64,000 bases of DNA from Bacteroidota bacterium. Lineage in GTDB: Bacteria; Bacteroidota; Ignavibacteria; UBA10030; SZUA-254. Positions 18,754 through 55,585 of this stretch are shown here, in pieces. Each line of letters opens with the position of its first letter. Position 1 is the first letter of the stretch. The position numbers were made by a program, and so were the translations under genes. The DNA is taken from the NCBI GenBank assembly GCA_044449065.1, contig JBIOHP010000003.1:68076-132075 (forward strand). Reading direction: 5' to 3'. Below the pieces are notes generated by a model. The model had not been told where the DNA came from, ran no database searches, and saw only the letters and a program-made list of their open reading frames with translations.

Positions 18754-20115
18754 TTATACTACGCCCTGATCCATCATCGCATCGGCAACTTTTAAGAAGC
18801 CGGCGATATTGGCGCCATTCACATAATTACCAGGCGTGCCGAAACGTTCTGCCGTTTCGTAGCTGGCTTTATGAATGCTCTTCATAATGTTATGGAGACG
18901 GTTATCGACTTCTTCGCGCGTCCATGAGTAGCGCTGGCTGTTCTGCGACATCTCTAAACCAGAGGTCGCAACACCGCCGGCATTCGCCGCTTTGCCCGGA
19001 CCGTAAAGAATTTTTGCGTCGATGAATTGTTTTACGCCGTCGAGCGTGGTAGGCATGTTTGCGCCTTCAGATACCACGTACACGCCATTCTTTAAGAGAT
19101 TGGCTGCGTCTTTGCCGTTGACTTCATTCTGGGTAGCGCTCGGGAACGCGCACTGCGCTTTGTGATTCCAAAGCGGGTTGTACCCTAATTTTGAATCGGT
19201 CGGAGTATACACCGCGCTCTTGAATTTATCGGCATATTCTTTAATTCTGCCGCGGCGAACATTCTTTAAATCCATCACGAATGCCAATTTCTTCGCGTCT
19301 ATTCCGGCTTCATCATAAATGTAACCCGCTGAATCGGACACGGTAACGGCTTTGCCGCCAAGCTGGTTGATTTTTTCAATAGTGTATTGTGCGACATTGC
19401 CGCTTCCGGAAACGAGGCAAATTTTTCCATCAAGCGTTTGTTTCTTCGTTGATAACATTTCTGCCGCAAAGTACACTGCGCCATATCCGGTTGCCTCGGG
19501 ACGAATGAGCGAACCGCCCCAATTTAATCCCTTGCCGGTAAGAACGCCGGTAAATTCGTTGCGGAGTTTTTTGTACCTGCCGAATAAAAATCCTATTTCA
19601 CGGCCTCCAACGCCGATATCGCCCGCCGGGACGTCGGTATCCGGACCGATGTGGCGGAATAACTCATCCATGAACGCCTGGCAAAAACGCATGACTTCCA
19701 TATCGCTCTTGCCTTTTGGATCGAAATCGGATCCGCCCTTACCGCCGCCCATCGGCAGCGTGGTTAAACTGTTTTTGAATACCTGTTCGAATGCAAGGAA
19801 TTTTAAAATTCCAAGATTTACCGATGGATGAAGTCTCAACCCGCCCTTGTACGGACCGATTGCGCTGTTCATTTCGATTCGGAAGCCGCGATTGACATGT
19901 ATTTCACCGCGATCATCTACCCATGGTACGCGAAACATCAGCACGCGTTCCGGTTCCACTATGCGTTCGAGCATTTTTGCCGAACGATATTCCGGATGAC
20001 GTTCAAGCACGATGGAAAGCGATTCTACCACTTCCTGAACTGCCTGATGAAATTCCGGTTCAGCCGGATTTTTTGCTTTGATTGCAGCCATGAGATCGTT
20101 TACATAACCTGACAT
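18754..20115 (-). CDS. gdhA: NADP-specific glutamate dehydrogenase
   Basis: 453 aa with the GDH signature region LPMGGGKGGSDFDPKGKSD and the Rossmann motif GSGNVAQY. Confidence 0.9.
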   Translation of the reverse strand: MSGYVNDLMAAIKAKNPAEPEFHQAVQEVVESLSIVLERHPEYRSAKMLERIVEPERVLMFRVPWVDDRGEIHVNRGFRIEMNSAIGPYKGGLRLHPSVNLGILKFLAFEQVFKNSLTTLPMGGGKGGSDFDPKGKSDMEVMRFCQAFMDELFRHIGPDTDVPAGDIGVGGREIGFLFGRYKKLRNEFTGVLTGKGLNWGGSLIRPEATGYGAVYFAAEMLSTKKQTLDGKICLVSGSGNVAQYTIEKINQLGGKAVTVSDSAGYIYDEAGIDAKKLAFVMDLKNVRRGRIKEYADKFKSAVYTPTDSKLGYNPLWNHKAQCAFPSATQNEVNGKDAANLLKNGVYVVSEGANMPTTLDGVKQFIDAKILYGPGKAANAGGVATSGLEMSQNSQRYSWTREEVDNRLHNIMKSIHKASYETAERFGTPGNYVNGANIAGFLKVADAMMDQGVV

Positions 20116-20594
20116 TGTAATCTCCTTTAAAGTAATTTAATGTGTATTGTTCGTTTCTTGTACGTTGTAATAATTACGGTTGAATCAATTCTTTTCATTC
20201 CCACCGTGAAAAGAATTTGTAAAAAATAAAATTCGTTTATGCGTCGATCGTTTTTACCGCCAGGGGGGATGTAATTATAATGCGAGATATGAAATTGATC
20301 GGATAAGTTACATGGAATACGTAGTGATTACCGGGAGAGGATGATCTTGTTTGGACATTCATTTGGAGGAACCCATGATTTTTTTATCCTCGTACCAATT
20401 CAATTTCTGCATTTAAAACATTCTTATTTTGACGGGAAATTTGTCGATCGATGCATATTACACTTCAATTTCTATGCCAATGAATTGGCGAAAGATAACC
20501 GAAATGCCACCTATAGGAAATAGGCGAAATTGGTTCAATTTCAATAGTGAGAGTAATGCTCAATGACAATTTTCAATATTGATAAAATTTCGGA

Positions 20595-20638
20595 TAATTG
20601 CAATTAAATCTATGGTTTGTCGCTATTTACACTGTAAA
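20595..20638. promoter_or_regulatory. Two perfect palindromes (TAATTGCAATTA at 20595-20606; TTTACAcTGTAAA at 20626-20638) in the 800-bp divergent gdhA/aguB intergenic region; candidate regulator binding sites
   Basis: Read directly from the sequence. They sit between divergently transcribed nitrogen-metabolism genes. Confidence 0.3.
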
Positions 20639-20918
20639 TGAACTCGTTTAAATGGTGCATTCTTAGATTTGTTCAGACGCAGATTACCGAATGATTTCTT
20701 CAGCGCCAGTGCTTGGCGATGCGGAAAACCGGAATCGTATCCCGAAAGATTTCATGAGATAGATTTCACATCGATTTTTTCTCCCTTCGCCCATGATGCC
20801 GTTAATGTTTAGCGAAGATGTTTTCTATGCGGATGATCGCTTTTTATCTCTCGATGTGCTATAATGTTAATTTTTTCATACATTCAATGATTGTTTCACA
20901 AGCCAATAGGATCAATTG

Positions 20919-21815
20919 ATGCGCCAGATGAAAAATTTCACCATCGGTTTAATTCAAATGTCGATGACCCCCAGCCCGAAAGACAACCTGCAGCGGGCGG
21001 TCGATTTTATCGGGCAGGCGGCAAAGAAAAAAGCTCAAATAATTTGTCTCCCCGAATTGTTCAGCTTCCAATACTTTTGCCAGCGCGAAGATATCGCGTT
21101 GTTCGATCTCGCCGAGCCCGTGCCGGGACCGACGACGGAGGCAATTCAGGCGGCCGCGAAGAAACACAATGTTGTTGTTGTTGTACCGCTTTTTGAAAAA
21201 CGCGCGATCGGGTTGTATCATAACACCGCCGCTGTGATCGACGCCGACGGCGTCTTACTCGGTCTCTACCGCAAAATGCATATCCCGGACGATCCTTCTT
21301 TTTTTGAAAAATTTTACTTCACGCCGGGCGACCGCGGGTTTCAGGCATTTCAAACAAAATTCGGAAAAGTCGGAACGCTCATCTGCTGGGATCAGTGGTA
21401 TCCCGAAGGAGCGCGGCTCACCTCGCTCCTCGGCGCCGGGGTTCTTTTTTATCCTACCGCAATCGGGTGGCTGCCTCATGAGAAAAAGCAATACGGAGCT
21501 ACACAGCGGGACGCGTGGGAGACGGTTCAACGGGGACATGCTATCGCTAACGGCGTTTTTGTTGCGGCAGTCAACCGGGTGGGCATTGAAAAGCCCTCGC
21601 CGGATTCCACGGGGCTGGAATTCTGGGGAAGTTCGTTCATCGCCGATCCGCAGGGAGTGATCCTTGCCAAGGGCTCGACCGATAAGGAAGAAATTATTAC
21701 GGCGGAAATCGATCTTGCTCACATGGAAGAGGTCCGGCGCAATTGGCCCTTCCTCCGCGACCGCAGGATCGACGCGTACCAGGGCATTACCGAACGGTTT
21801 TTGGATAAGAAATAA
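20919..21815 (+). CDS. aguB: N-carbamoylputrescine amidase (carbon-nitrogen hydrolase family)
   Basis: Nitrilase-superfamily catalytic triad context (E in LPELF, K in YRKMH, C in LICWDQW). The length is about 298 aa. It is adjacent to agmatine deiminase. The ORF as given begins at TTG 20916, but the ATG at 20919 is the more likely start. Confidence 0.85.
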   Translation: MRQMKNFTIGLIQMSMTPSPKDNLQRAVDFIGQAAKKKAQIICLPELFSFQYFCQREDIALFDLAEPVPGPTTEAIQAAAKKHNVVVVVPLFEKRAIGLYHNTAAVIDADGVLLGLYRKMHIPDDPSFFEKFYFTPGDRGFQAFQTKFGKVGTLICWDQWYPEGARLTSLLGAGVLFYPTAIGWLPHEKKQYGATQRDAWETVQRGHAIANGVFVAAVNRVGIEKPSPDSTGLEFWGSSFIADPQGVILAKGSTDKEEIITAEIDLAHMEEVRRNWPFLRDRRIDAYQGITERFLDKK

Positions 21816-23091: not shown

Positions 23092-23164
23092 CGCGGGGTG
23101 GAGCAATTGGTAGCTCGTTGGGCTCATAACCCAAAGGCTGTAGGTTCAAGTCCTACCCCCGCTA
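23092..23164 (+). tRNA. Initiator tRNA-fMet (anticodon CAU), with no CCA encoded
   Basis: Manual fold: acceptor CGCGGGG/CCCCGCU with a 1:72 C-U mismatch, which is an initiator hallmark; D-arm GAGC-AATTGGTA-GCTC; anticodon stem TTGGG/CCCAA with the three consecutive G-C pairs typical of initiators; loop CTCATAA; T-arm GTAGG-TTCAAGT-CCTAC. It closely resembles E. coli tRNA-fMet. Confidence 0.85.
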
Positions 23165-23184
23165 CAATAACTACAGAAACCTCA
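23154..23184 (+). repeat. attL-like 31-bp direct repeat (TACCCCCGCTACAATAACTACAGAAACCTCA) overlapping the 3' end of tRNA-fMet
   Basis: It is identical to 29424-29454, giving a perfect 31/31 match as read from the sequence. Confidence 0.8.
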
Positions 23185-23298
23185 ATCGATATAAACCGGT
23201 TGAGGTTTTGTATTTAATACACCTCGATGAGGCCGTTATGCAGGTTGGCATAAAAAAATGAAGGCATTTCAATTAATGTTGATTTCGTCGCTAAATTA

Positions 23299-24102
23299 TT
23301 AAATCAACTTGTCGGCATATTTGAGGGCATCCATTCCACGTTGGACATTTAGCAGTTTTTCATATTGATCCATTGTCGCCGTGTCCCCTAAAGGATTTGT
23401 TTTGAGTATTTTGGGATAGATCACAAGCCAGATAGTGCATATCCAACCAATTGTGTCTTCCGTTAACTCACAAATCCTTTCAAATAGTTGTTCGTCGAAA
23501 TCAGGCGTATCTGCCCCCATATTTATTGAGTTTGTCGGGAGATCGTCATCGTTAGAATAAGGGCGACTATGTGTAAAGTTGCAAAGATATTGGAAATGAC
23601 TATATATTTCATTTACGATATCGCAAGAATCCTGAATATTAAAGTCTTTTATTGGCTGCAATTTATTTATTAAGGTTTTCATTTCACGCCAATTGGGAGT
23701 ATCCCTCTTTCCACATTCCCATTCACTAAAATATTTCTCGTCTCCGTTTTTGGTGAAATCTTCACGGGCCTGAAAATACAGACTAACCGTTGCTATATCG
23801 AGAGCATTTCTTAAAAGAGTAGCCGCTGATTTATAGAATCCCGAACAAAGATTCCATGCAGCAGCATTAATATCATCAGAAACGTCAACAAAGGTCCAGT
23901 TTATTATTTCGTCATCGCCTGCTATCTTGGGATCATTGATTTGAGTGTACCCGTAAACAAATCCTAGCATTTCATCTACTTTTTGTCCCAAGTACTTTAA
24001 TCTGTTGATTCTTGTAGGATCCGAGAGTGTGATAGTATTGGCTTGTTGTGCTAATTCGATTATCCTGCGACTTTTAGCTCCCATACTTGTTGTGGTCTTC
24101 AT
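23299..24102 (-). CDS. Hypothetical protein (267 aa) at the island edge
   Basis: Long ORF with no recognisable motifs. It is acidic and has no TM segments. Confidence 0.45.
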   Translation of the reverse strand: MKTTTSMGAKSRRIIELAQQANTITLSDPTRINRLKYLGQKVDEMLGFVYGYTQINDPKIAGDDEIINWTFVDVSDDINAAAWNLCSGFYKSAATLLRNALDIATVSLYFQAREDFTKNGDEKYFSEWECGKRDTPNWREMKTLINKLQPIKDFNIQDSCDIVNEIYSHFQYLCNFTHSRPYSNDDDLPTNSINMGADTPDFDEQLFERICELTEDTIGWICTIWLVIYPKILKTNPLGDTATMDQYEKLLNVQRGMDALKYADKLI

Positions 24103-24748
24103 ATTACTCTATCCTATATATTGATTTTTGAGAAAGGGAATTGTTATTAAAGTATCCAACGAGGAGTAAATTGCCAGCAGGCTTAGTGGTAATGTCATTT
24201 TTGTTATAAATTTGAATCCTATTACCTGAGGCACCTGGGAGTGTACATATCCAAAGAAATCATCAGCCCGCACCCTTATCGGGCGTCGTTGACTTCAATC
24301 ACAGATACAAAAAAAAATCTCAGATTTTCAGATCAAGATTGTAGACAATGCTACGCATATTTGATTTCAATTAATTATTTTTCTGTTTGTATGATCCATT
24401 ATTTTTTATCACCATTAGTGACAATTTCGAAAATATTCAGTCTTCAAATGAAGGCAATGCTTTATAATATACAGTTATTGATTTAAATAATAAATAGAGT
24501 GTGTGTTTTTTGTTGTCAAAACAATTGAATGATATTCATAGTTTAATTCCATTAGGTAGGGATTTGATCAAAATCTATAACCATATCATGATGGTGTTTA
24601 ATGAGCCCATAATGAAACATCCATTAATATGGAGGAAATTGAGCAGAATTAGGGATAGATCATTGATATCGTTTAATTTAGATCGTTAGCGAGTCCGTTC
24701 GTTAACTTGATTAAAGCATAATAATTATGTATCTTTTTCCCACCACGG

Positions 24749-25414
24749 GTGATAAGAAAATCACCTCGCATTGATGATTTTATAAGAACATATGAAAGGA
24801 GAAGCAGTATGTCAAATGCCATTGTCCCTCGGTTGACTATCGCAGACATATGCTACGGTGTAGTTAGCTACGGTGCAACATTGATTAGATTGGGCATAGC
24901 CGCAGCAGTTGCTGTGATCATTATTGGCGACGTTAATTGGAATAAAGTCGTCGTTAGCTTGGGCATTGTTCTTGTGATGGTGCTCGATTACCTTGATGGA
25001 ATACTTTTTAGTCGATCTGTCATGAACAATGACAAATCTTGGAGAATCCGAAGACGAATAGTTGATTCCGTAATTGATCGAATTGTAATACAGGCCGTCT
25101 GTATTCCGTTAGTTTTGATATACAATTCTTTCCAGCCCTTCTTTCTGATTATCCTTGCTAGGGAAGTGTTCATGTCTACTTTCTTAACAAGAGTTTTTGC
25201 TCGAAATATTCTTATTTATCCTAGCAAGGTTTCTCGTCTATCTATGATCATGATAGGAATTACTGTTATCGCCTATGCTTTAAACTACAGCAATGTTGCT
25301 GTATTGGCAGCCACATTGATGATTGGATTTAGTCTAATATCATTTCAAGAATACAAAAAGAGGTTAAGTAATAACCAAGGCGATTCAATAATCGAGCTAC
25401 GCGAGATTCAATGA
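24749..25414 (+). CDS. Polytopic membrane protein with a degenerate CDP-alcohol phosphatidyltransferase-like motif
   Basis: About five TM helices. The segment DYLDGILFSRS...RIVDSVID resembles D-G-x2-A-R...D-x3-D, but the motif is imperfect. Confidence 0.4.
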   Translation: MIRKSPRIDDFIRTYERRSSMSNAIVPRLTIADICYGVVSYGATLIRLGIAAAVAVIIIGDVNWNKVVVSLGIVLVMVLDYLDGILFSRSVMNNDKSWRIRRRIVDSVIDRIVIQAVCIPLVLIYNSFQPFFLIILAREVFMSTFLTRVFARNILIYPSKVSRLSMIMIGITVIAYALNYSNVAVLAATLMIGFSLISFQEYKKRLSNNQGDSIIELREIQ

Positions 25415-26061
25415 GTCACGACTTTGAGTATTTCAAAAAACGATTTAACCTCATAATAAATTCGGGCGTGGGAATATGTCTGTTTATCGGGTTGGTTCTC
25501 TGTGGCATCGACAGATTGGATGTATTCGTTATAGATAAGAGTCAGTTATTTAACAAGTTCCTTTTTATATTCATACCCTGTGCCATAATAGTGTTAGCAT
25601 CCCAATTCGGCATGCGTACGTTTAAAAACAAAATTCAGGAAAAAACGGCCACGATTTGCCTTTTTTTCTCTGCTGTGTCTTTCATCGTGTTAATGGCGAT
25701 ACCTGTCTACTTCTTCGGGGGTGCTCATAAATCTTGCTTTACTCCCATCTTGATAACTGTTTCAAGTATGAGTGTTATCACAACAAAATCAAGGCAGATC
25801 AAGTTCATATTCTTCGGAGTTTGTTTAGCTCTATTTATTATTCTGTCAATGCCTGGATACTATCAAGAAATTTCAATTAATCCAAACATTGTATGGAAAA
25901 ATTATACAGGTGCTGATCTTTACAGTTTCATGGAGACAGCATCGGTTGTTGCTTGCCTTATAGTGAGTATTGCTTTGACTTGGAACGCAGGTTTGATATT
26001 CAAAGAAGACAATCCTCCCCAAACAAACGATAGCGGCCAACCAATTCAGCAAAGTTCTTAG
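25411..26061 (+). CDS. Hypothetical polytopic membrane protein; its start overlaps the upstream stop (ATGA), so the two genes form an operon
   Basis: 216 aa with 5-6 hydrophobic helices. It is translationally coupled to the upstream gene. Confidence 0.45.
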   Translation: MSHDFEYFKKRFNLIINSGVGICLFIGLVLCGIDRLDVFVIDKSQLFNKFLFIFIPCAIIVLASQFGMRTFKNKIQEKTATICLFFSAVSFIVLMAIPVYFFGGAHKSCFTPILITVSSMSVITTKSRQIKFIFFGVCLALFIILSMPGYYQEISINPNIVWKNYTGADLYSFMETASVVACLIVSIALTWNAGLIFKEDNPPQTNDSGQPIQQSS

Positions 26062-26924
26062 CTAAATCACCCAACTTCAATTTAGAGGCAGCTGAAACAA
26101 ATCTACCAATCTCACTGTAGATCGAAAGATTCTATGTGTGCCAACTCAGGAAAATACTAGGGTGTCCACAAACAAAACAAACCCTTGAAATAATCATCAA
26201 TTGCATGTGCGCGACGTTGAATAATGTTGATGCAATTAAACTTTCTACCTTCTTCTCAAATCAATTTTCTGTCCATAATTGTAGAATAAGGCACAAAAAC
26301 AATCCTGGACAAAGGCATCCCTAGAAGGAAATAATGGTTCTTTGGTTCATATCTTTAACCTTTACTATATTTACATTGAAACTCTATGAATGAATCGACA
26401 ATCTCGAAAATAGAATCAGTCGGAAACCTAATAAGGTTGAATAAATCAAACAATGTTGAAATATAATCATATATCTTCACAAATCTTCACACTCAATGTG
26501 AACGAGGGGGAGATATTTATTTGTCTCAAAATAAACTACTCAAGATAATTGTGAATAACTTATTCAGTTGAAAATTTAATTTGAAAATCTGCTCTGAGAT
26601 TGTTAATAATGTACCATTCCCTATTGTTGAGAGGCTCAGATTAAAAATTATTGGTTTATTGATTTAAGAAACAAAGTTTCTTATCTTCAATTGTCTTAGG
26701 AAATTGTCATAAAATATTAATAAAGTTACCGATACTTGGTTTACATTTCAACCTAAGAACCGTTCTTAATTATCAAACAAATGAAACTCGATCAAAAAGA
26801 ATTTCATTTCTATTACCGTTCACATGATTGAAAGCTTGGTAAATAACACGGATATTTTCAAATGATATGGTAAATGTTTGTTGACTTTAAGAAATCTGTT
26901 AATATAGTTAACTAAAATCATGGA

Positions 26925-26953
26925 TTGACACGTTTTGTATACGATTTTATAAC
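26925..26953 (+). promoter_or_regulatory. Candidate sigma70-type promoter (TTGACA-17 bp-TATAAC) upstream of the radical SAM gene
   Basis: The sequence is ttgacaCGTTTTGTATACGATTTtataac, about 120 bp upstream of the ATG at 27071. A second weaker candidate, TTGACT-16-TATAGT, is at 26881-26908. Confidence 0.35.
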
Positions 26954-27070
26954 ATAATTCATATGGAAAAACAACATAGCTATTTACCAAACCCAAATGA
27001 CTACTTAATTTGTTTTCCAAGCATGGCTTATTCAGGATTGCAGTTAATGACCACGACTGGATGAATCATA

Positions 27071-28507
27071 ATGAAAAAATTTAATCTTGCCTTGATCTCA
27101 CCCGGTAGAGAAGGAAGTGTGGTTTCTGGTCGGTGGAAAGGAATGGTAAATTTCTATCGCCTCACACTTCCATTGCTTGCTGGTCTAACACCGAAGGATC
27201 GTTACACGATTTCTATTTTTGATGAATGCGTTGATACAATTCCTCTGGATAGAGATTTTGATTTGGTGGCCATGAGTGTTATGACTGCTTATGCTCCAAG
27301 AGCATACGAATTGTGCCGTAATTTGCAAAAACGTGGATCTATCGTTGTTTTAGGAGGTCATCACCCTACTCTTCTTCCAACTGAAGCGATGGAATATGCT
27401 GATACAGTTGCCATAGGAGACGCTGAGGCAATCTGGCCACAGATTCTACAAGACTTTGAAAAAGGGATTCTCCAGAAAATATATCATGGTACAGATATTG
27501 GAGCTGATTTCAACCGATCTCTTTATCCCGATAGGTATTCTGTTAAACAAAAATCAATGCTTGTTTTTAATACAGTCGAAACCTCCCGAGGGTGTCCATA
27601 TCTTTGTGATTATTGCACAATTGCTTCATTCTATAAATCTAGTTATAGAAAATATAGCATTGAATCTGTAATGAGGGATATCGAATCTACAAATGGGAAA
27701 TACATTTTTTTTGTCGATGATAATCTCATTGGTGGAAACGCTCAAGACAGGAATCGTACTAAAGAGTTACTACGGGCCTTAATCCCTCTAAATAAACGAT
27801 GGTTTTGTCAGGCGACCGTCAAATTTGCTGATGACGAAGAGCTTCTTTCACTTGCTGCCTTGGCTGGCTGCGTTGGTGTGTATTTAGGTCTGGAATCAAT
27901 ATCGACTGAAAGCCTCAATGAGGTTAGGAAAGGATGGAACAAGCCCGAATCCTATTCGGAACGCATTAAGCGAATTCGTAGTGCAGGTATTGCAATCGAA
28001 GCTGGCTTGATATTCGGATTTGATCACGACAATCGTGATGTTTTCAAGCGTACGGCAGAATTCATTATCCAGACAGGAATCGAGAGTCCAAATGGCCATC
28101 TTCTAACTCCATATCCGGGGACACCTCTATTTGATCGAATGCAATCAGAAAAACGAATTCTTACCTACGATTGGAGCCTTTATAACACTGGTAATGTGGT
28201 CTTTAAACCCCTTAAGATGACTCCCGATGAATTATTTGAAGGATATGTCAACTGGTATCAGAAAATGTTCTCAACCTCGACAATCGTTGAGAGACTCACG
28301 AAGGCAAATTTTCCTTATTATACTGCCCTCATCGGATTAGCCAAGGCTATCGAGGTTAGGAGAAGAGAATTTCACATTCGGAAAACTACGATAGATAGCA
28401 AAACCTGTCCTACGAACCTGATAATTGATTGTGGTGCTATACCTGAGACTTTCAACAGTACCGAACGCCACTCATTTGATACGATTAACGTTCAAACAAC
28501 TCTTTAA
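27071..28507 (+). CDS. B12-binding (class B) radical SAM enzyme
   Basis: The N-terminal cobalamin-binding-like domain reads LVAMSVMTAYAPRAYELCRNLQKRGSIVVLGGHHPTLLP. The radical SAM CxxxCxxC motif is SRGCPYLCDYCTIAS. Confidence 0.8.
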   Translation: MKKFNLALISPGREGSVVSGRWKGMVNFYRLTLPLLAGLTPKDRYTISIFDECVDTIPLDRDFDLVAMSVMTAYAPRAYELCRNLQKRGSIVVLGGHHPTLLPTEAMEYADTVAIGDAEAIWPQILQDFEKGILQKIYHGTDIGADFNRSLYPDRYSVKQKSMLVFNTVETSRGCPYLCDYCTIASFYKSSYRKYSIESVMRDIESTNGKYIFFVDDNLIGGNAQDRNRTKELLRALIPLNKRWFCQATVKFADDEELLSLAALAGCVGVYLGLESISTESLNEVRKGWNKPESYSERIKRIRSAGIAIEAGLIFGFDHDNRDVFKRTAEFIIQTGIESPNGHLLTPYPGTPLFDRMQSEKRILTYDWSLYNTGNVVFKPLKMTPDELFEGYVNWYQKMFSTSTIVERLTKANFPYYTALIGLAKAIEVRRREFHIRKTTIDSKTCPTNLIIDCGAIPETFNSTERHSFDTINVQTTL

Positions 28508-28854
28508 CTAAATTTGAAAGTCGAAATACATTCGACTCTATACTATCTTCATCAATTAAACATGGTTGCTTTGAATTAATTGTTTGAGAAGGTAAAAGTT
28601 ATAGTATCATTCTTCTGTAGTTATTGTTTCGGGCCCCCGCTACCAGAGAAAACCGGTTTCTGAAAAGAGATCGGCTTTTGTTATAATGAGGTACAGACTG
28701 TCAAAGCGGAACCGGTTGAAATGATTGATGTGTTCCGTTTGATTCACGAATGATTTAGCGCCAAACGGATACCTTGCCTCAATATCGATTTCGCTCAAGC
28801 GGGCTTGGTTACTCTAGATATTATTTCATTAATTTTTATCAGAATGGAAAAACG

Positions 28855-29421
28855 ATGAAACTGAAGCTTTTTGATCCACATGAAACCGATCAGATGCAGC
28901 GGTACGCCGGCATTCCTCTTGCCTCGTTTACTTCACGGGGAATTGCATTGTTTATCGACGTCCTCGCGGGCTCTGTCTTCACGTTCTTTATAGTTGTGCT
29001 TATTACCTTAACCCAATACTTTCTTTTCCACGTATCTGAACGACCGGACACGTTTGGCAATGCGCTGCTGAAAGAAATGATTGATACCGGATTAGGTACC
29101 GAAAAACCCGGCGGTGACGTTGTTGTTGCTCTGAATCCTCATTCAAGCGTGTTCACCGCGATCGGCATTGGCATCTATTTTGCCATCATAACATACGTGA
29201 CAAACGGGAGTTCGCTGGGCAAGCGGTTGATGAGGATTCGGGTGATCTCTTTAGTGCACGAAAAGATATCCGTCTGGCAATCGGTTGAACGAGCCCTGGG
29301 ATATTCGGCTTCCCTTGCGGAAGCGGGATTTGGGTTTTTTCAATACTTCATTCATCCAAACCGCCGCACCGTCCATGACAGGATTGCGGAGACGATTGTG
29401 ATTAAGGTGGTGAAGAAGTAA
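28855..29421 (+). CDS. Small polytopic membrane protein (RDD-family-like)
   Basis: The in-frame ATG at 28855 follows a GGAAAAA ribosome-binding site. There are three hydrophobic helices, and the GKRLMRIRV motif resembles the RDD family. The stop codon lies 3 nt before the attR-like repeat. Confidence 0.4.
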   Translation: MKLKLFDPHETDQMQRYAGIPLASFTSRGIALFIDVLAGSVFTFFIVVLITLTQYFLFHVSERPDTFGNALLKEMIDTGLGTEKPGGDVVVALNPHSSVFTAIGIGIYFAIITYVTNGSSLGKRLMRIRVISLVHEKISVWQSVERALGYSASLAEAGFGFFQYFIHPNRRTVHDRIAETIVIKVVKK

Positions 29422-29423
29422 CG

Positions 29424-29454
29424 TACCCCCGCTACAATAACTACAGAAACCTCA
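29424..29454 (+). repeat. attR-like 31-bp direct repeat copy
   Basis: Identical to 23154-23184. Confidence 0.8.
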
Positions 29455-29710: not shown

Positions 29711-30334
29711 ATGAAAAGAACGTCACTCGATCTTGAACAACATATTTTTCACTCACCTAATTTTCGGAGTGTAATTACAGAGGCAGTAAAATTTTTCCGT
29801 AGTACACCTCCAGTTGATCTTCCGCCTGGAGAGAAATTTATAGGTGGGGGTGTCTATGCATTGTACTACAAAGGGACATTTAAATATTATAAGCCACTCG
29901 CAAAGCAAAATGCGAAGGAATTTGTTCAACCAATATATGTTGGGAAAGCTGTTCCTCCCGGATGGAGGACAGGGAGAATCTCAAACTCTGAAAGTATGGA
30001 TTTATTCCGTAGACTGAGTGAGCATGCTAAGAGCATAATGCAGGCACAAAACCTGAATCTGGTGGATTTTCGATGTCGGTTCGTTATCTTGAACGAAGCA
30101 GAGGGTGATCTGATTGTTCCCCTGGAAGCCGAGTTAATTCGAGTTTATTCTCCGATCTGGAATCAGGTCGTTGATGGATTCGGAAATCACGACCCAGGCT
30201 CAGGGAGGTATGATCAAGCAACATCAGAATGGGATATTTTGCATCCGGGACGAACATGGACAAAAAACCTTCGAGGAGTCGCGCCAGTTCTTAAAAACAT
30301 TGTCGCCAACGTAAAAGCTGCTCTCGTTAAATAA
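29711..30334 (+). CDS. Hypothetical protein with a GIY-YIG-like motif; candidate type II restriction endonuclease (Eco29kI/Cfr42I-like class) partnered with the convergent methyltransferase
   Basis: GGGVYALYY...QPIYVGKA gives a GVY...IYVG motif, followed by conserved R (GWRTGR) and E/N positions (LNEAEGD, IWN). It is about 207 aa, a size typical of GIY-YIG restriction enzymes. It is convergent with and 8 bp from the methyltransferase stop. Confidence 0.4.
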   Translation: MKRTSLDLEQHIFHSPNFRSVITEAVKFFRSTPPVDLPPGEKFIGGGVYALYYKGTFKYYKPLAKQNAKEFVQPIYVGKAVPPGWRTGRISNSESMDLFRRLSEHAKSIMQAQNLNLVDFRCRFVILNEAEGDLIVPLEAELIRVYSPIWNQVVDGFGNHDPGSGRYDQATSEWDILHPGRTWTKNLRGVAPVLKNIVANVKAALVK

Positions 30335-30341
30335 AGAAATA

Positions 30342-31691
30342 TTATTTCTTCTTAACGACTACGACAGCTTCGTAGAGTGAGTGAGAGTTCTTCGCTTTTG
30401 TCACGCGTACCGTTGATTGAATAATGCTATTGCCTATTCGGGTTTTTCGTGGCACGTTAATCTCGATCAACTTAAGACCACAATACTCTGCGATTTCTCC
30501 GAAAAATTCATCCGTTGGAATTTGGATTCCCTGAAGGATACTGTTCCCAATGACAATAAATGCGTAGTGATCACTCTTGAGCGCATGCTTTATTCCCGTT
30601 GCAAGCTTATGGCAGTCGTTAAAATATGAAATTGCATAATTTGCCCAACCCTTGCCGCCATATATCCCTTTTTCCTGATTGCAACCACTCAAATTTTGGA
30701 TCGTCTTAATCAGTTTATCCGATGGAGATGAAAATTCCCATCTTACATTGTCTTTTTCTCTGACGGTCTGCCAGTACTTACCGAAGTTCATCTCTTCAAG
30801 TTTCTGCATATCGTCCGTGCTCAATGCATATCCTAACCAATAGAGTTGAGGTCGAGTGTTCCGGTTGTAATGGTAGTTATTGAGATATGGTGGTGACGTG
30901 ATTACAATGTCTATTGATTCTTTCATCAGGTGCTTCGTCACATTGAAAAAAGAATCGTTAATAACCGTTCCTTTTCCATGGAGAGGGTTGGGCTTAAATT
31001 GAATTTCTTCAACATCCTCAGACATTTCAGATAGCTTCGATTTCATCGTCTCGATCACGGGAAAGTCATCGAACTCGTTCTTGCCGGAACCCTTGCGTGT
31101 TCCTAAACTAGGCTCATACGAATAATTCGAATATCGAACCATCGTCGCACCGAAGGCGAGCATGAATAAATCATTAATCCGTTTATTCTTCAAAGACGAG
31201 ATAAAATCTTGAATCACCAAGACCTTCCTGAGAATCTTTGGATTGTAGAATGCAATTCGAGTCTTGAAGGTCTCGGGGGGCTTGCTGAACGGTGTATAAT
31301 TCGATTTAAGAGTATTAATGCAGAATTCCTCGAATAGGTCGATATTTTTCCTGAGCAATTTGAGGTCAATACTCAAAGATGCCACCTTTACTTTGCTTGC
31401 AAGTGCGGCGTAAGGATTGATTTCAAAACCTATAGCATCATGACCGAGCGTGCATGCCTCAATTAGCGTTGTCCCTACTCCTGCAAATGGATCAAGCACC
31501 GTTCCCTTTTTAGTCATATATCGCTGCAGGACATCCTGAACGAAGAGACTCGAAAATCCAGCTATCCAAGGAACCCATCTGTGAATGGGTAGTGATTTGT
31601 TATTAGCAAATGCCGGATCAACAAAATCTTCACCGTTCTTTCGCAAACGGGAAGCAACATTTAGTTCGAAGAGTTCGGTTTGTAAGTGCAT
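30342..31691 (-). CDS. Site-specific DNA methyltransferase (amino-methyltransferase, N4-C/N6-A type)
   Basis: AdoMet motif I DPFAGVGTTLIEA and catalytic motif IV VITSPPYLNNY. SPPY favours N4-cytosine specificity. Confidence 0.75.
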   Translation of the reverse strand: MHLQTELFELNVASRLRKNGEDFVDPAFANNKSLPIHRWVPWIAGFSSLFVQDVLQRYMTKKGTVLDPFAGVGTTLIEACTLGHDAIGFEINPYAALASKVKVASLSIDLKLLRKNIDLFEEFCINTLKSNYTPFSKPPETFKTRIAFYNPKILRKVLVIQDFISSLKNKRINDLFMLAFGATMVRYSNYSYEPSLGTRKGSGKNEFDDFPVIETMKSKLSEMSEDVEEIQFKPNPLHGKGTVINDSFFNVTKHLMKESIDIVITSPPYLNNYHYNRNTRPQLYWLGYALSTDDMQKLEEMNFGKYWQTVREKDNVRWEFSSPSDKLIKTIQNLSGCNQEKGIYGGKGWANYAISYFNDCHKLATGIKHALKSDHYAFIVIGNSILQGIQIPTDEFFGEIAEYCGLKLIEINVPRKTRIGNSIIQSTVRVTKAKNSHSLYEAVVVVKKK

Positions 31692-31926
31692 TTCATTTAT
31701 TCTTTATTGAAGTTTACGAAAACCCAGCATTAATCTCAAATCCTCATGGTTTTACTTCTTCTATTTGCTTGCCTGCCTTCGGTTTGGTGACTTGTGCCAT
31801 TTTCCATTGACTAAATTCCATTCTTTGTTTATACTTAAAAATTCTTATACTTGGTGTTACATCTATATAAATAGTTGGATAAATCAAGCAAAATTCTTTA
31901 AGTGGCTCTGAAACCCGAATATTGAG

Positions 31927-36522: not shown

Positions 36523-39500
36523 ATGAAAAAATTATCTATTATTTGCTGCTTAGTGTTGATGATAGTTGCACTACAGAGCTTGTATTCGCAAACTCTTCCC
36601 AATCCGAAGATTACCTCGTCGTTCAATCCCGATAGCAGCTGTATCAATCGGAATACGTCCGGTACGGGCGGTCCCGGTAAAGGTGAATGTCTTTATGCAT
36701 GCGAGAATCATCTCGCAACATATTGCACAAGTTTATCAGCAACCGATACATACTCCTGGACAGTTGTCGGAGGCACCATAGGGGGCAATAGTACCGTAAC
36801 TGGAATTGGACTTAACTGCGTCACAGTTCTTTGGGGACCAGCCGGCAGCGGCAATATTTCCGTGATTGAAACGGATACCAGCGGAAATACGGGCATCGAT
36901 CATGCTTGTGTTAATATCATCAACGCCCCCAAAGCGATTTTCACGCCGACGAGCATCTCTGCCTGTTCCGGTATCCCGGTTAACTTTACCGACGCCTCGT
37001 TGAATGCTATCAGCTATATTTGGAATTTTGGCGATCTGGCGAGCGGCGGTAACAACACCTCGGCGCTGCAAAATCCGACGCACTTATTTTCCGCGCCGGG
37101 CACATACACCGTCACGCTCGTTGTTTTCAATCATTGCGGTTGCAGCGACACCACACACGGAACTGTGACGATTACCAGTCTTTCTGGCCCGAGAATCGAT
37201 TGTCCGTCAACAGTTTGCGCAGGCACAACAAAATGTTATTCAACGCCGGATGGATGTCTGGGAGCGGTTTATACCTGGACCGTTACCGGTGGAACACGGC
37301 TTGCTCCGTTTGGCAGTGTAAATAATATTTGCGTTCAATGGGGCTCTGGAAATCCACAGGGACAGATTACTCTTACAATTACGGGATGCGGTTCCGTGTG
37401 TCCCGGACCGACAACCGTCGATATCCCAATTGTTCCAACCACGACAACAATTATGGGAGGAAGCGTAGCTTGTTATGGCGCCAATTCAGTCTATTCAGTT
37501 CCGGCCTGGCCCGGAGCATGTTACAATTGGACAGTCCCGGCGGGCGCTGCGACGATTATTGCCGGGGACAGCACAAATCATATTCAGGTTCATTGGAATA
37601 CTGTCGGAACATTCACGATTAATGTTTCCTGGCACGACGACCTGCTTGGCTGTGCCCCCGGCAGCGCCTCCATCCAGGTGACCGTAAAGCCGGATTTCGA
37701 TATCATAGGACCAACCGATCCGATATGCCTTAATTCATCAGCTACTTTCACTGCAATTGGTAATCCATTTACGCCATCGCCTAATTTTACCTGGTCTTGT
37801 CCGGGTGGGACGGTGACTGCGGGGCAGGGTACGCAGAGTGCGACCATTCAATTCACATCGCCGGGTCTCCAAACTGTTACCGCAACCCCGATCGGCTCTC
37901 CGAATCCCTATTGCTCGCCGAGTAAAACATTTACGGTAAATGTTGTCATGGTCAATCCTCCCATAAGCATCACGGGACCTGACACTATTTGCGCAAATGG
38001 AACATACACCTATAGCACTCCACCACCCCCATCGGGGTTGGATATCCAGTGGACAGCAACCGGCGGCGTTATCGTGGGTTCAAGCCACGCAAATCCCGTT
38101 TCGGTTACATGGAATCCCATCGGACCGTATTCAATATCGGTGTCGTATGTAAATACCGTCGCGCCATTCTGCTCGTCGACGCCCTTTACACTGCCTGTCT
38201 ATTTGTTCAACGTTCCCAGCATCACCGGAAGTCAAAATGTTTGCATGGATCAGACGTTTACTTACACCGCCGGTGGTTCCCATCCGGCATTGGATTATCA
38301 ATGGTCGATTGTTACTGCTCCCAGCGGACCGACTTCACCGGATGGCAGTATTGTCACGGGGCAGGGCAGCAATTCAGTTTCAGTGCTCTGGCATGGACCG
38401 GGATCCGTAACTGTATATCTCCAACTAACAGTGTGCAGCACTATCATAACACTGCCGATCACTATTAACCCAAAACCGACGCCGACTATTATGATGAGCG
38501 GACAACTCTGTAATCCGGTCATCCTGACTGCAAGCGCCGGATATATATCCTATTCATGGTCGAACGGAGCTTCCGGCAATCCAATCGTAGTCAATACAGG
38601 AGGCAATTATACCGTAACAGTTACGAATGCCGGAGGATGCACAGGCACTGCAACCATCAACGTGCCGACGCCGCCCGGTCCGGTTGCCAGCATATCGACG
38701 CCCGATCCGACTTCGTATTGTCCGGCTACCGCTCCAATTAGCGTTACTCTTTATGCTCTTCAGGGCGCCGGATATACATACCTATGGTCAAATGGATCGA
38801 TACTAAATCCCATCACGGTTACCACACCCGGAACGTATTATGTAACTGTGACAGACGCAAATAATTGTAAATCAGTTTCGAACTCAATAATTATTACTCG
38901 TGGACCCTGTCCACCGCCGAATCCTTGCGTCACCACTGATACAGTCGGTTTCACGTTCGGTATTCCGTCGTGTAATCCTGTCCCTTTTACAGGGGTGTCT
39001 ACACCCGGCGCTACCAATCTGATATGGAATTTTGGCGACCCACTGAGTGGAACGAGTGATACATCAACCTCAACAAATCCGACGCACTCCTTTACCTCCG
39101 CCGGTTACTACACAGTAACGTATAGCGGTACCGGAGCTCCCAATTGTGCCATTGCGGTATCGCATCCGGTCGCCATAACGATAGCGGCGGATTTTAGTGA
39201 TGTTATTGGATGCGCAGGAAGCCCGACGCAATTTACGGATCACTCCACCTTCTTGCCGCCGTATTCGATTACTTCGTACTCGTGGAACTTTGGCGATTTC
39301 ACTTCATCGACATCGCCGAATCCTTCTCACGTGTATGCCCCAGGGACGTATACCGTCACGTTAACCATAACGAATTCGCAATGCACGGTAATGAAGACTA
39401 AGATTATCACGATCAATCCGCTTCCATCAGCCGCGTTTATTCTTCCGCCGATTTCATGCGTTGGAACAGATATTCCGATGAGCGCTGCGGCGTCCAATTT

Positions 39501-52641: not shown

Positions 52642-52784
52642 ACCTTATTGTACTAAATTTAACAAACCAAATTTGCAATCAATTCTGAAATGCTAATTTT
52701 ATCCGTGTAATGGCAAATATTTTTTTGTATTTTATAAATATAATCGATTTTGTATGTCTATAATTATTCAGGTATTAGAATTCC

Positions 52785-55019: not shown

Positions 55020-55052
55020 GAGAATAATAATCGAACAGACACGAAGTTTGTA

Positions 55053-55116
55053 TGAAGAGTCATCGCGATCCCGACAGTAGTCGGGAGTCGCGATTTCCTA
55101 CTATCGATGCAAATCG
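55053..55116 (+). ncRNA. Copy B of the same structured intergenic element
   Basis: tgaagagtcATCGCGAtCCCGACagtagGTCGGGagTCGCGATttcctacTATCGATGCAAAtcg. The outer stem is identical to copy A. The inner stem differs at every base but keeps its complementarity (TTCCGC/GCGGAA versus CCCGAC/GTCGGG). Confidence 0.5.
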
Positions 55117-55585
55117 CAAAAGAATGAATCTCAATTAAAACATCAACATAGTTTTCGCGCAATCTGGCAGCGTTGAAAACGTCTCCCCCTCACCATTGAA
55201 ATATTCTACAGTTCTTGGAAGAAAGTTGATTCGTTGTCATTAATAGTTTTATCTATAATATAGGGATCCGTCTTGCCCCTTTCTTTTCTTTATTTTCCCT
55301 AAAAAATGAAATAGATTTTCAAATGTAATTTTATCATTTGTGAAATCATATTTTCGCACTCTTGATAATTATCCTCACCAAATTACCTCTAAATTTTATC
55401 CTTTTAAAAATAATTAGCTAAAACGCGCAATAAACGAACAAAACTGTTTCTCGTAAACATATTTCGTATACAAAGTAATGGCATATTTATTGTTGACATT
55501 TTATACAATCTTAAAATACTACCCATATTTTAGTGAAATTATGATGGGTAAATTTCAATGTTGATTAAGAAAGCGAATTGTAAAC

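What the first reader, a model, noticed from the sequence alone, without database searches (positions are those of the whole stretch)
23092..29454. tRNA-fMet-anchored 6.3-kb island with perfect 31-bp att-like direct repeats and no integrase
The last 11 nt of the initiator tRNA plus 20 nt of downstream sequence (TACCCCCGCTACAATAACTACAGAAACCTCA) recur exactly at 29424-29454, 3 nt after the stop codon of the last island gene. That is the architecture of a site-specifically integrated element, but no integrase, excisionase or transposase ORF lies between the repeats. The interior is conspicuously AT-rich compared with its flanks. It carries one unassigned ORF, a coupled pair of membrane proteins, a B12-rSAM enzyme and an RDD-like protein. 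The element could be a decayed island, or a satellite mobilised in trans by an integrase encoded elsewhere. Integration at an initiator tRNA-Met is also less common than at other tRNAs.
Basis: seen in the sequence. Interest (0 to 1): 0.7.

Follow-up and report, generated by a model that had tools for sequence, protein, structure and literature searches.

The report
Integrase-less island remnants at tRNA-fMet
Foreign DNA was inserted by site-specific recombination into the end of the initiator tRNA gene of an uncultured Bacteroidota bacterium and has no recombinase gene of its own; the kind of event is familiar, but the region is a patchwork of at least two insertions rather than one neat 6.3-kb element.

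Summary
An initiator-type tRNA-Met(CAT) lies at 23092-23164. The exact 31-mer occurs only at 23154-23184 and 29424-29454 (0 expected by chance). No integrase, transposase or excisionase is detectable in the island or anywhere in the 64-kb window.

The 6.3-kb unit is not homogeneous. It is an inverted copy of the arm (19/21) abutting a direct copy of the tRNA 3' end, CCCCCGCTA-CCA, followed by a hairpin and the RDD gene.

Only 23166-28633 (5.47 kb) is compositionally foreign. RDD has host codon usage. A second foreign block, an Eco29kI-type restriction-modification pair, starts at the right-hand 31-mer.

Joining the ends of the 5.47-kb block in silico gives a 44-nt quasi-palindrome around the 10-bp core, which looks like an attP core.

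Best reading: an array of decayed, integrase-less elements, like cis-mobilizable elements (CIMEs), at a tRNA-fMet hotspot. They carry genes whose homologues sit in defence or mobile regions elsewhere.

No close relative genome was available, so no empty site could be checked. This is a new example of a known kind, of modest interest.

The parts
23092..23165 (+). Initiator tRNA-Met(CAT) gene, the integration target. It has a C1:U72 mismatch, A11:U24 and a GGG/CCC anticodon stem. No CCA is encoded in the present copy.
   Evidence: ARAGORN; Rfam RF00005, 66.4 bits; sequence read.
23154..23184 (+). 31-mer copy 1, the attL-type junction: TA, then the 10-bp core CCCCCGCTAC (c1, 23156-23165), then the 19-nt arm AATAACTACAGAAACCTCA.
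   Evidence: Exact match, 0 expected by chance; core copies listed.
23176..23209 (+). Strong terminator-like hairpin (13 pairs, followed by a T run). It straddles the right edge of the 31-mer and now ends the tRNA transcript. Its 3' half lies in the foreign block.
   Evidence: -19.5 kcal/mol.
23166..28633 (.). Block E1: 5,468 bp of compositionally foreign DNA (GC 0.31-0.41, tetranucleotide outlier, non-host codon usage). It is bounded by direct copies of the 10-bp core, with inverted arms of 21 nt (19/21) just inside.
23299..24102 (-). ORF267: a rare, all-alpha protein of unknown function next to attL. It shows no resemblance to any known recombinase. Its homologues lie in defence or mobile regions elsewhere.
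24749..25414 (+). 221-aa membrane protein, a divergent CDP-alcohol phosphatidyltransferase-like protein.
   Evidence: Pfam PF01066, E=3.6e-4, 21.4 bits against a cut-off of 22; aligns with the clear CDP-OH_P_transf partners in L083 and L214.
25411..26061 (+). 216-aa protein with 5 hydrophobic segments and no family hit. Its ORF overlaps the previous ORF by 4 nt.
26062..27070 (.). 1-kb stretch without ORFs, GC 0.307. It occupies the position where homologous cassettes carry a 644-711-aa polytopic membrane protein, so it is probably decayed or replaced DNA.
   Evidence: cassette structure.
27071..28507 (+). B12-binding radical SAM protein with a DUF4070 domain, from an uncharacterised clade.
   Evidence: Pfam; far below every NCBIfam cut-off; closest solved structure is AprD4, E=1e-13; homologue contexts.
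28613..28633 (-). X: an inverted copy of the arm (CCCGaaACAATAACTACAGAA, 19/21, including an exact 15-mer). It is the right end of block E1.
   Evidence: I11/I14; 0 expected.
28634..28645 (+). c2: a direct copy of the tRNA 3' end, CCCCCGCTA followed by CCA. It is the displaced tRNA fragment of an attR-type junction.
28653..28674 (+). Terminator-like hairpin directly after c2, a candidate for the native tRNA-fMet terminator.
   Evidence: -14.5 kcal/mol.
28855..29421 (+). RDD-family membrane protein of 188 aa from the ATG (the ORF is open from 28774). GC and codon usage are host-like.
   Evidence: Pfam PF06271, E=9.5e-18; annotated as 188 aa in NCBI; GC3 0.514; codon log-likelihood ratio +0.204 against host 0.183+/-0.069; a 48%-identical homologue lies among ordinary chromosomal genes.
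29424..29454 (+). 31-mer copy 2 (core c3 at 29426-29435).
29711..30334 (+). Eco29kI-family type II restriction endonuclease, with foreign-like codon usage.
   Evidence: Pfam PF09517, E=2.3e-62; PADLOC REase_II, 7e-71; log-likelihood ratio -0.120.
30342..31691 (-). Type II DNA methyltransferase, the partner of the endonuclease.
   Evidence: Pfam N6_N4_Mtase; PADLOC MTase_II, 1.9e-41.

Best explanation
The tRNA-fMet gene is a site-specific integration hotspot. It now holds an array of decayed elements that have lost their recombinase, not one intact element.

Inferred history:
1. The native locus read aguB-aguA, then tRNA-fMet ending ...CCCCCGCTA-CCA, then a hairpin terminator, then RDD.
2. A circular element (E1, now 23166-28633) recombined with the tRNA at the junction of the T stem and acceptor stem, through the 10-bp core CCCCCGCTAC. 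Its attP core was a 44-nt quasi-palindrome: a 21-nt arm, the central bases, and the inverted arm. A tyrosine integrase is the most likely enzyme.
3. The element's arm now supplies the last bases of the tRNA and a new strong terminator. The displaced native 3' end (c2, with CCA, hairpin and RDD) lies at its far end.
4. A second foreign block carries an Eco29kI-type restriction-modification pair. It begins at a second copy of the same junction sequence, right after RDD. It is taken to be another element of the same att family whose far end has been lost.

Neither block encodes a recombinase. They are either fossils or are moved only when a related integrase is supplied in trans or by an element that integrates alongside them, as described for cis-mobilizable elements (CIMEs).

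The cargo consists of ORF267, an incomplete CDP-alcohol-transferase-like / membrane protein / B12 radical SAM cassette, and the restriction-modification pair. Homologues of these genes lie in defence or mobile regions elsewhere, so the locus acts as a small defence or accessory island.

Shown: the three att copies, their geometry, the composition and codon-usage boundaries, the absence of recombinase genes, and the contexts of the homologues.
Inferred: the order of events, the class of recombinase, any mobility, and a defence role.
For: - Exact 31-mer pair overlapping the tRNA 3' end.
- Three direct exact copies of CCCCCGCTAC, at 23156, 28634 and 29426.
- The exact 15-mer ACAATAACTACAGAA occurs three times, once inverted at 28613-28627, with 0 expected. 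No other att remnant exists in the window.
- The c2 site reads CCCCCGCTA-CCA followed by a hairpin. This resembles the tRNA-fMet trailers seen in 80 metagenome loci.
- The reconstructed E1 junction is symmetric at 38 of 44 positions.
- The composition break coincides with X/c2. ORF267, CDP221, TM216 and the radical SAM gene have GC3 0.33-0.41 and codon log-likelihood ratios of -0.115 to -0.168. RDD has GC3 0.514 and +0.204. Host genes score 0.183+/-0.069, with a minimum of 0.059. The endonuclease scores -0.120.
- No recombinase was detected. The ORF267 model is all-alpha with no integrase-like match.
- Radical SAM homologues lie beside restriction-modification, Abi, AIPR, toxin-antitoxin and IS genes. 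ORF267 homologues lie beside SIR2, TIR, BanI restriction-modification and conjugation genes.
- The junction of T and acceptor stems is a recognised crossover subsite for tyrosine-integrase islands, and serine integrases are not known to target tRNA genes (PMC4383910).
- CIMEs are defined as elements that lost their integration and transfer genes but kept attL and attR (PMC5704250).
Against: - No related genome with an empty or differently filled site could be found. The proposed native order tRNA-RDD is therefore inferred only from composition and from the CCA-plus-hairpin remnant.
- The closest RDD homologue (61% identity, L210) is not next to a tRNA.
- This model needs the restriction-modification block to have inserted at a non-tRNA secondary site, and no right-hand att is found for that block.
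- The perfect, sharply bounded 31-mer pair is what a single integration event would produce.
- No cognate integrase or autonomous relative was found. The 25-mer is absent from the viral and metagenome collections.
Confidence: 0.45

Rival explanations
1. One reading: one 6.27-kb integrative element (23185-29423 plus one 31-mer) integrated into tRNA-fMet through a 31-bp identity block shared by attP and attB. The native trailer is then AATAACTACAGAAACCTCAGATCG.... The internal X/c2 site and the host-like RDD gene are host DNA picked up from a closely related former host by imprecise excision, in the manner of specialised transduction. The integrase was lost or acts in trans.
For: - The 31-mer pair is perfect and sharply bounded, as expected for the attL and attR of a single event.
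- In the circular form, the radical SAM and RDD genes would read through the core into the strong hairpin at 23176-23209, which would also end the convergent ORF267. That is a coherent layout.
- The RDD gene ends intact 2 nt before the repeat, at the same position as its 61% homologue.
Against: - The interior is not homogeneous. RDD is indistinguishable from host genes in codon usage, and the foreign signal stops at X/c2.
- The model gives no role to the inverted arm abutting a core copy, whereas joining c1 and c2 gives a near-perfect palindrome.
- The left side of the right-hand repeat has no inverted arm.
- The present host's tRNA trailer would have to equal the element's arm over 19 nt.
- The DNA right of the repeat is itself foreign-like, not native.
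Confidence: 0.33
2. A large non-autonomous transposon. The block 23158-28633 has 21-bp terminal inverted repeats (CCCGCTACAATAACTACAGAA and CCCGAAACAATAACTACAGAA). It inserted into the run of C's in the tRNA 3' end with a 2-bp CC duplication, and its end happens to rebuild the tRNA. A transposase would be supplied in trans.
For: The inverted ends match at 19 of 21 positions. The flanks are compatible with a 2-bp CC duplication, as read.
Against: - No transposase in the block or in the window.
- The end overlaps and exactly restores 8 nt of the tRNA. That is the hallmark of integrase-type tRNA-gene targeting (PMC4383910) and not of transposition.
- A third copy of the left junction, including the flanking TA-CC of the tRNA, lies at 29424. 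Transposition would not copy flanking bases.
Confidence: 0.07
3. Assembly artefact. The source is a metagenome-assembled genome, and 31 nt is a common assembler word length. A separate circular or foreign molecule that shares the 31-mer with the chromosome could have been threaded into the contig.
For: - The source is a MAG, named 'MAG... [Bacteroidota bacterium]'.
- The repeat is exactly 31 nt with sharp edges.
- Composition changes near the left repeat.
Against: - The composition break on the right falls at X/c2, not at the second 31-mer. The host-like RDD gene lies inside the supposed insert.
- A degenerate third copy inside the region shows real evolutionary history.
- Even if the contig were mis-joined, the inserted molecule would carry a perfect copy of the tRNA-fMet attachment sequence, so it would still be an integrative element of this host.
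Confidence: 0.05
4. The 31-mer is a dispersed genomic repeat, for example a terminator-associated or REP-like element, and has nothing to do with integration.
For: Part of the 31-mer forms the 5' arm of a terminator hairpin. The rest of the genome could not be searched.
Against: - Within 64 kb it occurs only at the tRNA and inside or at the edge of the foreign DNA.
- It includes 11 nt of the tRNA itself, in direct orientation.
- It is absent from the viral and metagenome collections.
Confidence: 0.03

Closest known systems
Cis-mobilizable elements (CIMEs) and accretion arrays of ICEs and IMEs at tRNA genes, as reviewed for streptococci in PMC5704250
   Same: - The DNA is flanked by attL- and attR-type sites at the 3' end of a tRNA gene and has no integration or transfer genes.
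- There is evidence for more than one element side by side, with an internal hybrid att site.
- Mobility is expected only through a recombinase from a related element.
   Different: - No related autonomous ICE, IME or phage, and no cognate integrase, has been identified.
- No conjugation-gene remnants are present.
- The host is an uncultured Bacteroidota bacterium.
- One member of the 'array' is a host-like gene.
- Mobility has not been tested.
tRNA-gene genomic islands of the Islander type (tyrosine-integrase islands; PMC4383910)
   Same: - The target tRNA gene is split and then regenerated by island sequence.
- A displaced 3' fragment in direct orientation marks the far end.
- The crossover lies at the junction of T and acceptor stems, a recognised subsite.
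- Tandem arrays are known in this class.
   Different: Islander requires a PF00589 integrase gene inside each island, and none is present here. The blocks are small (5.5 kb and about 2.4 kb).
Defence islands and integration hotspots that carry restriction-modification and candidate defence genes
   Same: - An Eco29kI-type restriction-modification pair is present.
- Homologues of ORF267 and of the radical SAM gene lie beside restriction-modification, Abi, AIPR, SIR2, TIR and toxin-antitoxin genes in other genomes.
- The cargo is low in GC and patchily distributed.
   Different: - Apart from the restriction-modification pair, none of the cargo belongs to a described defence system. The only PADLOC hit is a weak match of the radical SAM protein to PDC-M51A.
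- The radical SAM cassette here lacks its usual large membrane partner.
- A defence function is inferred from neighbourhood only.
Phage satellites and integrative mobilizable elements such as PICIs, P4-like elements and mobilizable genomic islands
   Same: They are small integrated elements at conserved sites that depend on helper functions.
   Different: As far as I know, those elements normally encode their own integrase, and often replication or packaging-hijack genes. Here there are no PHROGs hits apart from the methyltransferase and no integrase.

Membership tests
tRNA-gene island of the tyrosine-integrase (Islander) type | An intact target tRNA gene plus a displaced fragment of its 3' end in direct orientation downstream | tested here: met
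   The tRNA is intact. Direct copies of its 3' end lie at 28634-28645 (10 nt, followed by CCA) and at 29424-29434 (11 nt, within the 31-mer).
tRNA-gene island of the tyrosine-integrase (Islander) type | A tyrosine integrase gene (PF00589) inside the island | tested here: not met
   No PF00589 hit, or any other recombinase hit, for island ORFs, small ORFs, a six-frame translation of the ORF-less kilobase, or the 20 other large window ORFs tested. The ORF267 fold is unlike an integrase.
tRNA-gene island of the tyrosine-integrase (Islander) type | Crossover at a recognised subsite: anticodon loop, T loop, or the junction of T and acceptor stems | tested here: met
   The shared core, (TA)CCCCCGCTAC, starts at the last bases of the T stem and runs through the acceptor 3' strand. 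The subsites are as listed in PMC4383910.
Cis-mobilizable element (CIME) | attL and attR are retained, and integration and transfer genes are absent | tested here: met
   The att copies are intact. There are no recombinase, relaxase or coupling-protein families. The definition comes from PMC5704250.
Cis-mobilizable element (CIME) | Derived from, and mobilised by, a related ICE or IME whose integrase recognises the same att | not testable with these tools
   No related autonomous element was found: the att 25-mer is absent from the viral and metagenome collections, the tRNA 3' 21-mer is absent from viral contigs, and the island DNA gave no plasmid or phage match. The rest of the source genome is not available.
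Recombinase core site (inverted binding arms flanking the crossover region) | Dyad symmetry around the shared core in the reconstructed attP | tested here: met
   The junction of 28596-28633, the core and 23166-23203 is symmetric at 38 of 44 positions, with 15-nt perfect arms. This is an in-silico reconstruction, and binding has not been tested.
Insertion sequence or transposon | Terminal inverted repeats, a target-site duplication and a transposase | tested here: not met
   Inverted ends are present (19/21). Any duplication is at most an ambiguous 2-bp CC. No transposase is present.
Prophage or phage satellite | Phage structural, replication or packaging genes | tested here: not met
   No PHROGs family for any gene between the repeats. 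Only the methyltransferase outside them matches. The viral-contig searches gave no relative of ORF267 and only one distant (26% identity) match to the radical SAM protein.
Type II restriction-modification system (Eco29kI family) | An Eco29kI-type endonuclease next to a DNA methyltransferase | tested here: met
   PF09517, E=2.3e-62, with an adjacent N6_N4_Mtase; PADLOC REase_II and MTase_II.
HEPN-domain protein (ORF267) | A four-helix HEPN fold with an Rx4-6H motif | tested here: inconclusive
Known or candidate defence systems in PADLOC (the radical SAM cassette) | Matches to the system's component proteins | tested here: not met
   Only the radical SAM protein matches, weakly, PDC-M51A (2.3e-9). 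The partner proteins here and in L083 and L081 have no PADLOC hit.

The most novel reading that the evidence does not exclude
The blocks are not fossils. They would be members of a family of minimal, recombinase-free cargo modules that share a conserved attachment sequence: the 10-bp tRNA-fMet core plus a 19-21-nt arm that forms a palindromic attP. An integrase encoded elsewhere in the genome, or on a helper element, would shuffle them in and out of the tRNA-fMet hotspot, somewhat as integron cassettes are shuffled. They would deliver new defence genes: the ORF267 family and the CDP-alcohol-transferase / polytopic membrane protein / B12 radical SAM cassette.
Probability: 0.12. Interest if true: 0.6.

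Novelty: new member of a known kind. Interest (0 to 1): 0.3.

Why it matters
It shows that a direct repeat at a tRNA gene can be misread as the two ends of one island. Here composition, codon usage and a hidden third att copy indicate a compound array in which a host-like gene lies between foreign blocks.

It also gives an att sequence, with a reconstructed palindromic attP, for an unknown integrase that targets the initiator tRNA gene in an uncultured Bacteroidota lineage.

Finally, it flags two uncharacterised gene sets that recur in defence or mobile neighbourhoods: the ORF267 family, and a three-gene cassette of a CDP-alcohol transferase, a polytopic membrane protein and a B12 radical SAM enzyme. 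If the modules prove mobile in trans, they would be a compact example of recombinase-free cargo exchange at a tRNA hotspot. If not, this is an ordinary decayed island.

Tried and rejected
1. Looking for the same locus in relatives.
- Exact-protein look-ups of aguA, GDH and the radical SAM protein found nothing.
- The aguA search of one genome per species gave at most 68% identity and no tRNA-fMet synteny.

2. Looking for the att sequence elsewhere.
- The 25-mer is absent from viral and metagenome contigs.
- The tRNA 3' 21-mer is absent from viral contigs.
- The tRNA 3' 25-mer gave 80 metagenome loci, none related beyond the tRNA. The repeats found in them are tandem tRNA genes, not islands.

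3. A hidden recombinase.
- Pfam, NCBIfam, PADLOC and PHROGs on all island ORFs, on small ORFs, and on a six-frame translation of the ORF-less kilobase all gave nothing.

4. Extended homology beyond the 31-mer, which would have meant two related element arms. The MAFFT alignment looked suggestive but the similarity is not significant (p=0.28).

5. The 216-aa membrane ORF plus the 1-kb gap as a decayed copy of the 644-711-aa cassette partner. tblastn and a profile search found nothing, so this stays unproven.

6. Plasmid or phage origin of the island DNA. No blastn match in either collection.

7. RNA genes in the region. Rfam finds only the tRNA.

8. A right-hand att for the restriction-modification block. 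None was found.

9. The AlphaFold database fold library was unavailable.

Full report
OBSERVATION

ARAGORN finds one tRNA in the window, tRNA-Met(CAT) at 23092-23165. Rfam places it at 23092-23164 with 66.4 bits. Read directly, the gene has the initiator signatures: an unpaired 1:72 position (C1:U72), A11:U24, and three consecutive G:C pairs closing the anticodon stem. It encodes no CCA.

The 31-mer TACCCCCGCTACAATAACTACAGAAACCTCA occurs exactly twice, at 23154-23184 and 29424-29454. No shuffle gave even one match with 3 mismatches allowed. It covers the last 11 nt of the tRNA plus the next 20 nt. The second copy begins 2 nt after the stop codon of the RDD ORF.

NO RECOMBINASE

The ORFs between the repeats are these:
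- 23299-24102 (-): 267 aa, no family hit.
- 24749-25414 (+): a borderline CDP-alcohol phosphatidyltransferase match.
- 25411-26061 (+): a membrane protein with no family hit.
- 27071-28507 (+): a B12-binding radical SAM protein with DUF4070.
- 28774-29421 (+): an RDD-family protein.

None matches an integrase, excisionase or transposase in Pfam, NCBIfam, PADLOC or PHROGs. Small ORFs gave nothing. A six-frame translation of the 1-kb ORF-less stretch at 26062-27070 gave nothing. Twenty other large ORFs spread across the window, most of its long ORFs, also gave no recombinase family.

The repeat has a third, rearranged copy inside the 'island'.
- At 28613-28633 the + strand reads TTCTGTAGTTATTGTTTCGGG. 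This is the reverse complement of CCCGaaACAATAACTACAGAA and matches the att arm at 19 of 21 positions, including an exact 15-mer. That 15-mer occurs three times in the window against 0 expected.
- Immediately after it, on the + strand, comes CCCCCGCTACCA (28634-28645). This is a direct copy of the tRNA acceptor 3' strand and discriminator base, here followed by CCA. A terminator-like hairpin follows at 28653-28674.

The 10-mer CCCCCGCTAC thus occurs three times in direct orientation, at 23156, 28634 and 29426. A Smith-Waterman scan finds no further att remnant anywhere in the window.

COMPOSITION

The block 23185-28612 has GC 0.31-0.41 and is the strongest tetranucleotide outlier in the window. 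Its four genes have GC3 of 0.33-0.41.

I compared a host model of synonymous codon usage with an island model, using leave-one-out estimates. The four island genes score -0.115 to -0.168 per codon. The 28 host genes score +0.183 +/- 0.069, with a minimum of +0.059.

The RDD gene scores +0.204, with GC 0.463 and GC3 0.514. It is indistinguishable from host genes. RDD homologues are numerous (1200 hits). A 48%-identical homologue lies among ordinary chromosomal genes, in an lpxA-like / LOG / RDD arrangement.

To the right of the second 31-mer the DNA is again foreign-like. It carries an Eco29kI-family endonuclease (PF09517, 2e-62; codon score -0.120) and a type II methyltransferase.

The compositional picture is therefore: foreign block, then a host-like gene, then a second foreign block. 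The first boundary falls at the internal att site, not at the right-hand 31-mer.

GEOMETRY

If the two ends of the 5.47-kb foreign block are joined through one copy of the core, the junction is TTCTGTAGTTATTGTTTCGGG-CCCCCGCTAC-AATAACTACAGAA. It is symmetric at 38 of 44 positions and has 15-nt perfect arms.

Inverted binding arms flanking the crossover region are the usual design of a site-specific recombinase core site. This statement rests on established knowledge of lox, FRT, dif and lambda core sites, not on a test made here.

The shared core starts at the junction of the T stem and the acceptor stem. That is one of the three crossover subsites recognised for tyrosine-integrase islands in tRNA genes. 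Serine integrases are not known to target tRNA genes (PMC4383910).

The sequence that follows c2 (CCA, a short spacer, a hairpin and a T run) resembles the tRNA-fMet trailers in the 80 metagenome loci retrieved with the tRNA 3' 25-mer.

BEST EXPLANATION AND MAIN RIVAL

I read the locus as follows. The native order was aguB-aguA, tRNA-fMet(...CCCCCGCTA-CCA), hairpin, RDD. A circular element integrated through the 10-bp core. It replaced the end of the tRNA with its own arm and with a strong new terminator at 23176-23209 (-19.5 kcal/mol). The native 3' end was pushed 5.47 kb downstream. The restriction-modification block, which begins with the same TA-core-arm sequence, is a second element of the same att family.

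Neither block keeps a recombinase. This fits the definition of cis-mobilizable elements, which have lost their integration and transfer genes but retain attL and attR and often lie in arrays with other elements (PMC5704250). I give this composite model about 0.45.

It explains the perfect, sharply bounded 31-mer pair better: identity stops abruptly on both sides, and similarity beyond it is not significant (p=0.28). But it has to treat X/c2 and RDD as host DNA captured from a near-identical former host. It also has to assume that the present host's tRNA trailer equals the element's arm over 19 nt.

Under either model the general statement holds with about 0.85 confidence. These are relics of site-specific recombination at tRNA-fMet, without a local recombinase, and more than one event has occurred.

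MINOR RIVALS

- A non-autonomous transposon with 21-bp inverted ends and a 2-bp duplication (0.07).
- A chimeric assembly at a shared 31-mer (0.05). The source is a MAG according to the names on P0001 and P0121, and 31 nt is a common assembler word length. This can only be settled with the reads.
- A dispersed repeat unrelated to integration (0.03).

CARGO

Close homologues of the radical SAM protein (59-76% identity) lie in accessory regions:
- L083: beside a type I restriction-modification system, a cytosine methyltransferase and AbiEi.
- L081: beside a Ppl-like ATPase and an AIPR protein.
- L082: among IS elements.
- L214: between toxin-antitoxin modules.

In L083 and L214 the gene is the last of a three-gene cassette: a CDP-alcohol phosphatidyltransferase of about 190 aa, a 644-703-aa protein with 13-15 hydrophobic segments and no family, and the radical SAM enzyme. 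L081 has a homologous 711-aa membrane protein directly upstream of the radical SAM gene but no recognisable transferase. L082 has a truncated 311-aa homologue nearby.

The window copy has a divergent transferase-like protein, a 216-aa protein with 5 hydrophobic segments, and then 1 kb without ORFs where the large partner should be. Neither tblastn nor a profile search detects a remnant of the partner there. The cassette here is probably incomplete.

The radical SAM enzyme is far from any characterised subfamily. It scores below every NCBIfam cut-off, and the closest solved structure is AprD4 at E=1e-13.

A defence role for ORF267 and for the cassette is an inference from their neighbourhoods, not a finding. 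Only the restriction-modification pair is a recognised defence system.

COMPARATIVE LIMITS

- Exact-protein look-ups failed.
- The best aguA relatives are 68% identical and have no nearby tRNA-fMet.
- The att 25-mer is absent from the viral and metagenome collections.
- None of the 80 loci that share the tRNA 3' end is related beyond the tRNA.
- No fetched locus carries an RDD gene near tRNA-fMet or near aguBA.
- The 61%-identical RDD homologue (L210) is not next to a tRNA.
- The island DNA matches no plasmid or phage record.

No empty site, no autonomous relative and no cognate integrase could therefore be examined. The order of events remains an inference.

VERDICT

The region is a compound, decayed array at a tRNA-fMet hotspot, in which a host-like gene lies between two foreign blocks. 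This is a new example of a well-known kind of structure. Interest is modest (0.3).

The most novel reading still open is that these are recombinase-free cargo modules sharing a palindromic att site and exchanged in trans. I give it about 0.12 probability. It would be moderately interesting if shown.

Noticed in passing
L083 7291-11395; L214 6364-10263; L081 575-4170 (compare window 24749-28507): A recurring cassette in restriction-modification, Abi, AIPR and toxin-antitoxin neighbourhoods. L083 and L214 carry all three genes: a CDP-alcohol phosphatidyltransferase of about 190 aa, a 644-703-aa polytopic membrane protein with no family, and a B12-binding radical SAM/DUF4070 enzyme. L081 has a homologous 711-aa membrane protein plus the radical SAM gene, but no recognisable transferase. 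PADLOC does not list it as a system. The window copy lacks the large membrane protein.
   Followed up: partly
window 23299-24102 (-); alignment A2: ORF267 belongs to a very rare family: 13 clusters among 5.8 billion proteins. Three motifs are nearly fully conserved: DDEIINWT, SLYFQ and FTHSR. The confident model is all-alpha and resembles HEPN domains only loosely, with no Rx4-6H motif. Neighbours elsewhere include SIR2, TIR, a BanI restriction-modification system and conjugation genes.
   Followed up: partly
window 23092-23165 and 28634-28645; loci L090-L169: The initiator tRNA has C1:U72 rather than C1:A72, and the present gene encodes no CCA. The displaced remnant at 28634-28645 does read ...GCTA-CCA. 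The 3' 25-mer of this tRNA is found in at least 120 metagenome contigs, so this variant is widespread. Several of those contigs (L133, L134, L137) carry two or three tRNA-fMet genes.
   Followed up: partly
window 36523-43146 (+): A 2207-aa ORF with GC about 0.52. It is the second tetranucleotide outlier of the window (37-41 kb). It was not annotated.
   Followed up: no
window 20001-21000, 52001-53000, 55001-56000: Local GC dips to 0.375-0.39, away from the island. These may be intergenic regions or small insertions. They were not examined.
   Followed up: no
window 31692-31926: A 235-bp AT-rich spacer (GC 0.32) lies between the methyltransferase and the large sensor kinase. It is the presumed right border of the restriction-modification block, but it contains no att-like sequence.
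   Followed up: yes
window 15583-18570 (-) and L082 6115-8304: A 995-aa protein with a response-regulator receiver and a PPDK_N domain lies 5 kb left of the tRNA. An unrelated locus with a homologous radical SAM gene (L082) also has a PPDK_N protein nearby. This is probably coincidence and was not tested.
   Followed up: no
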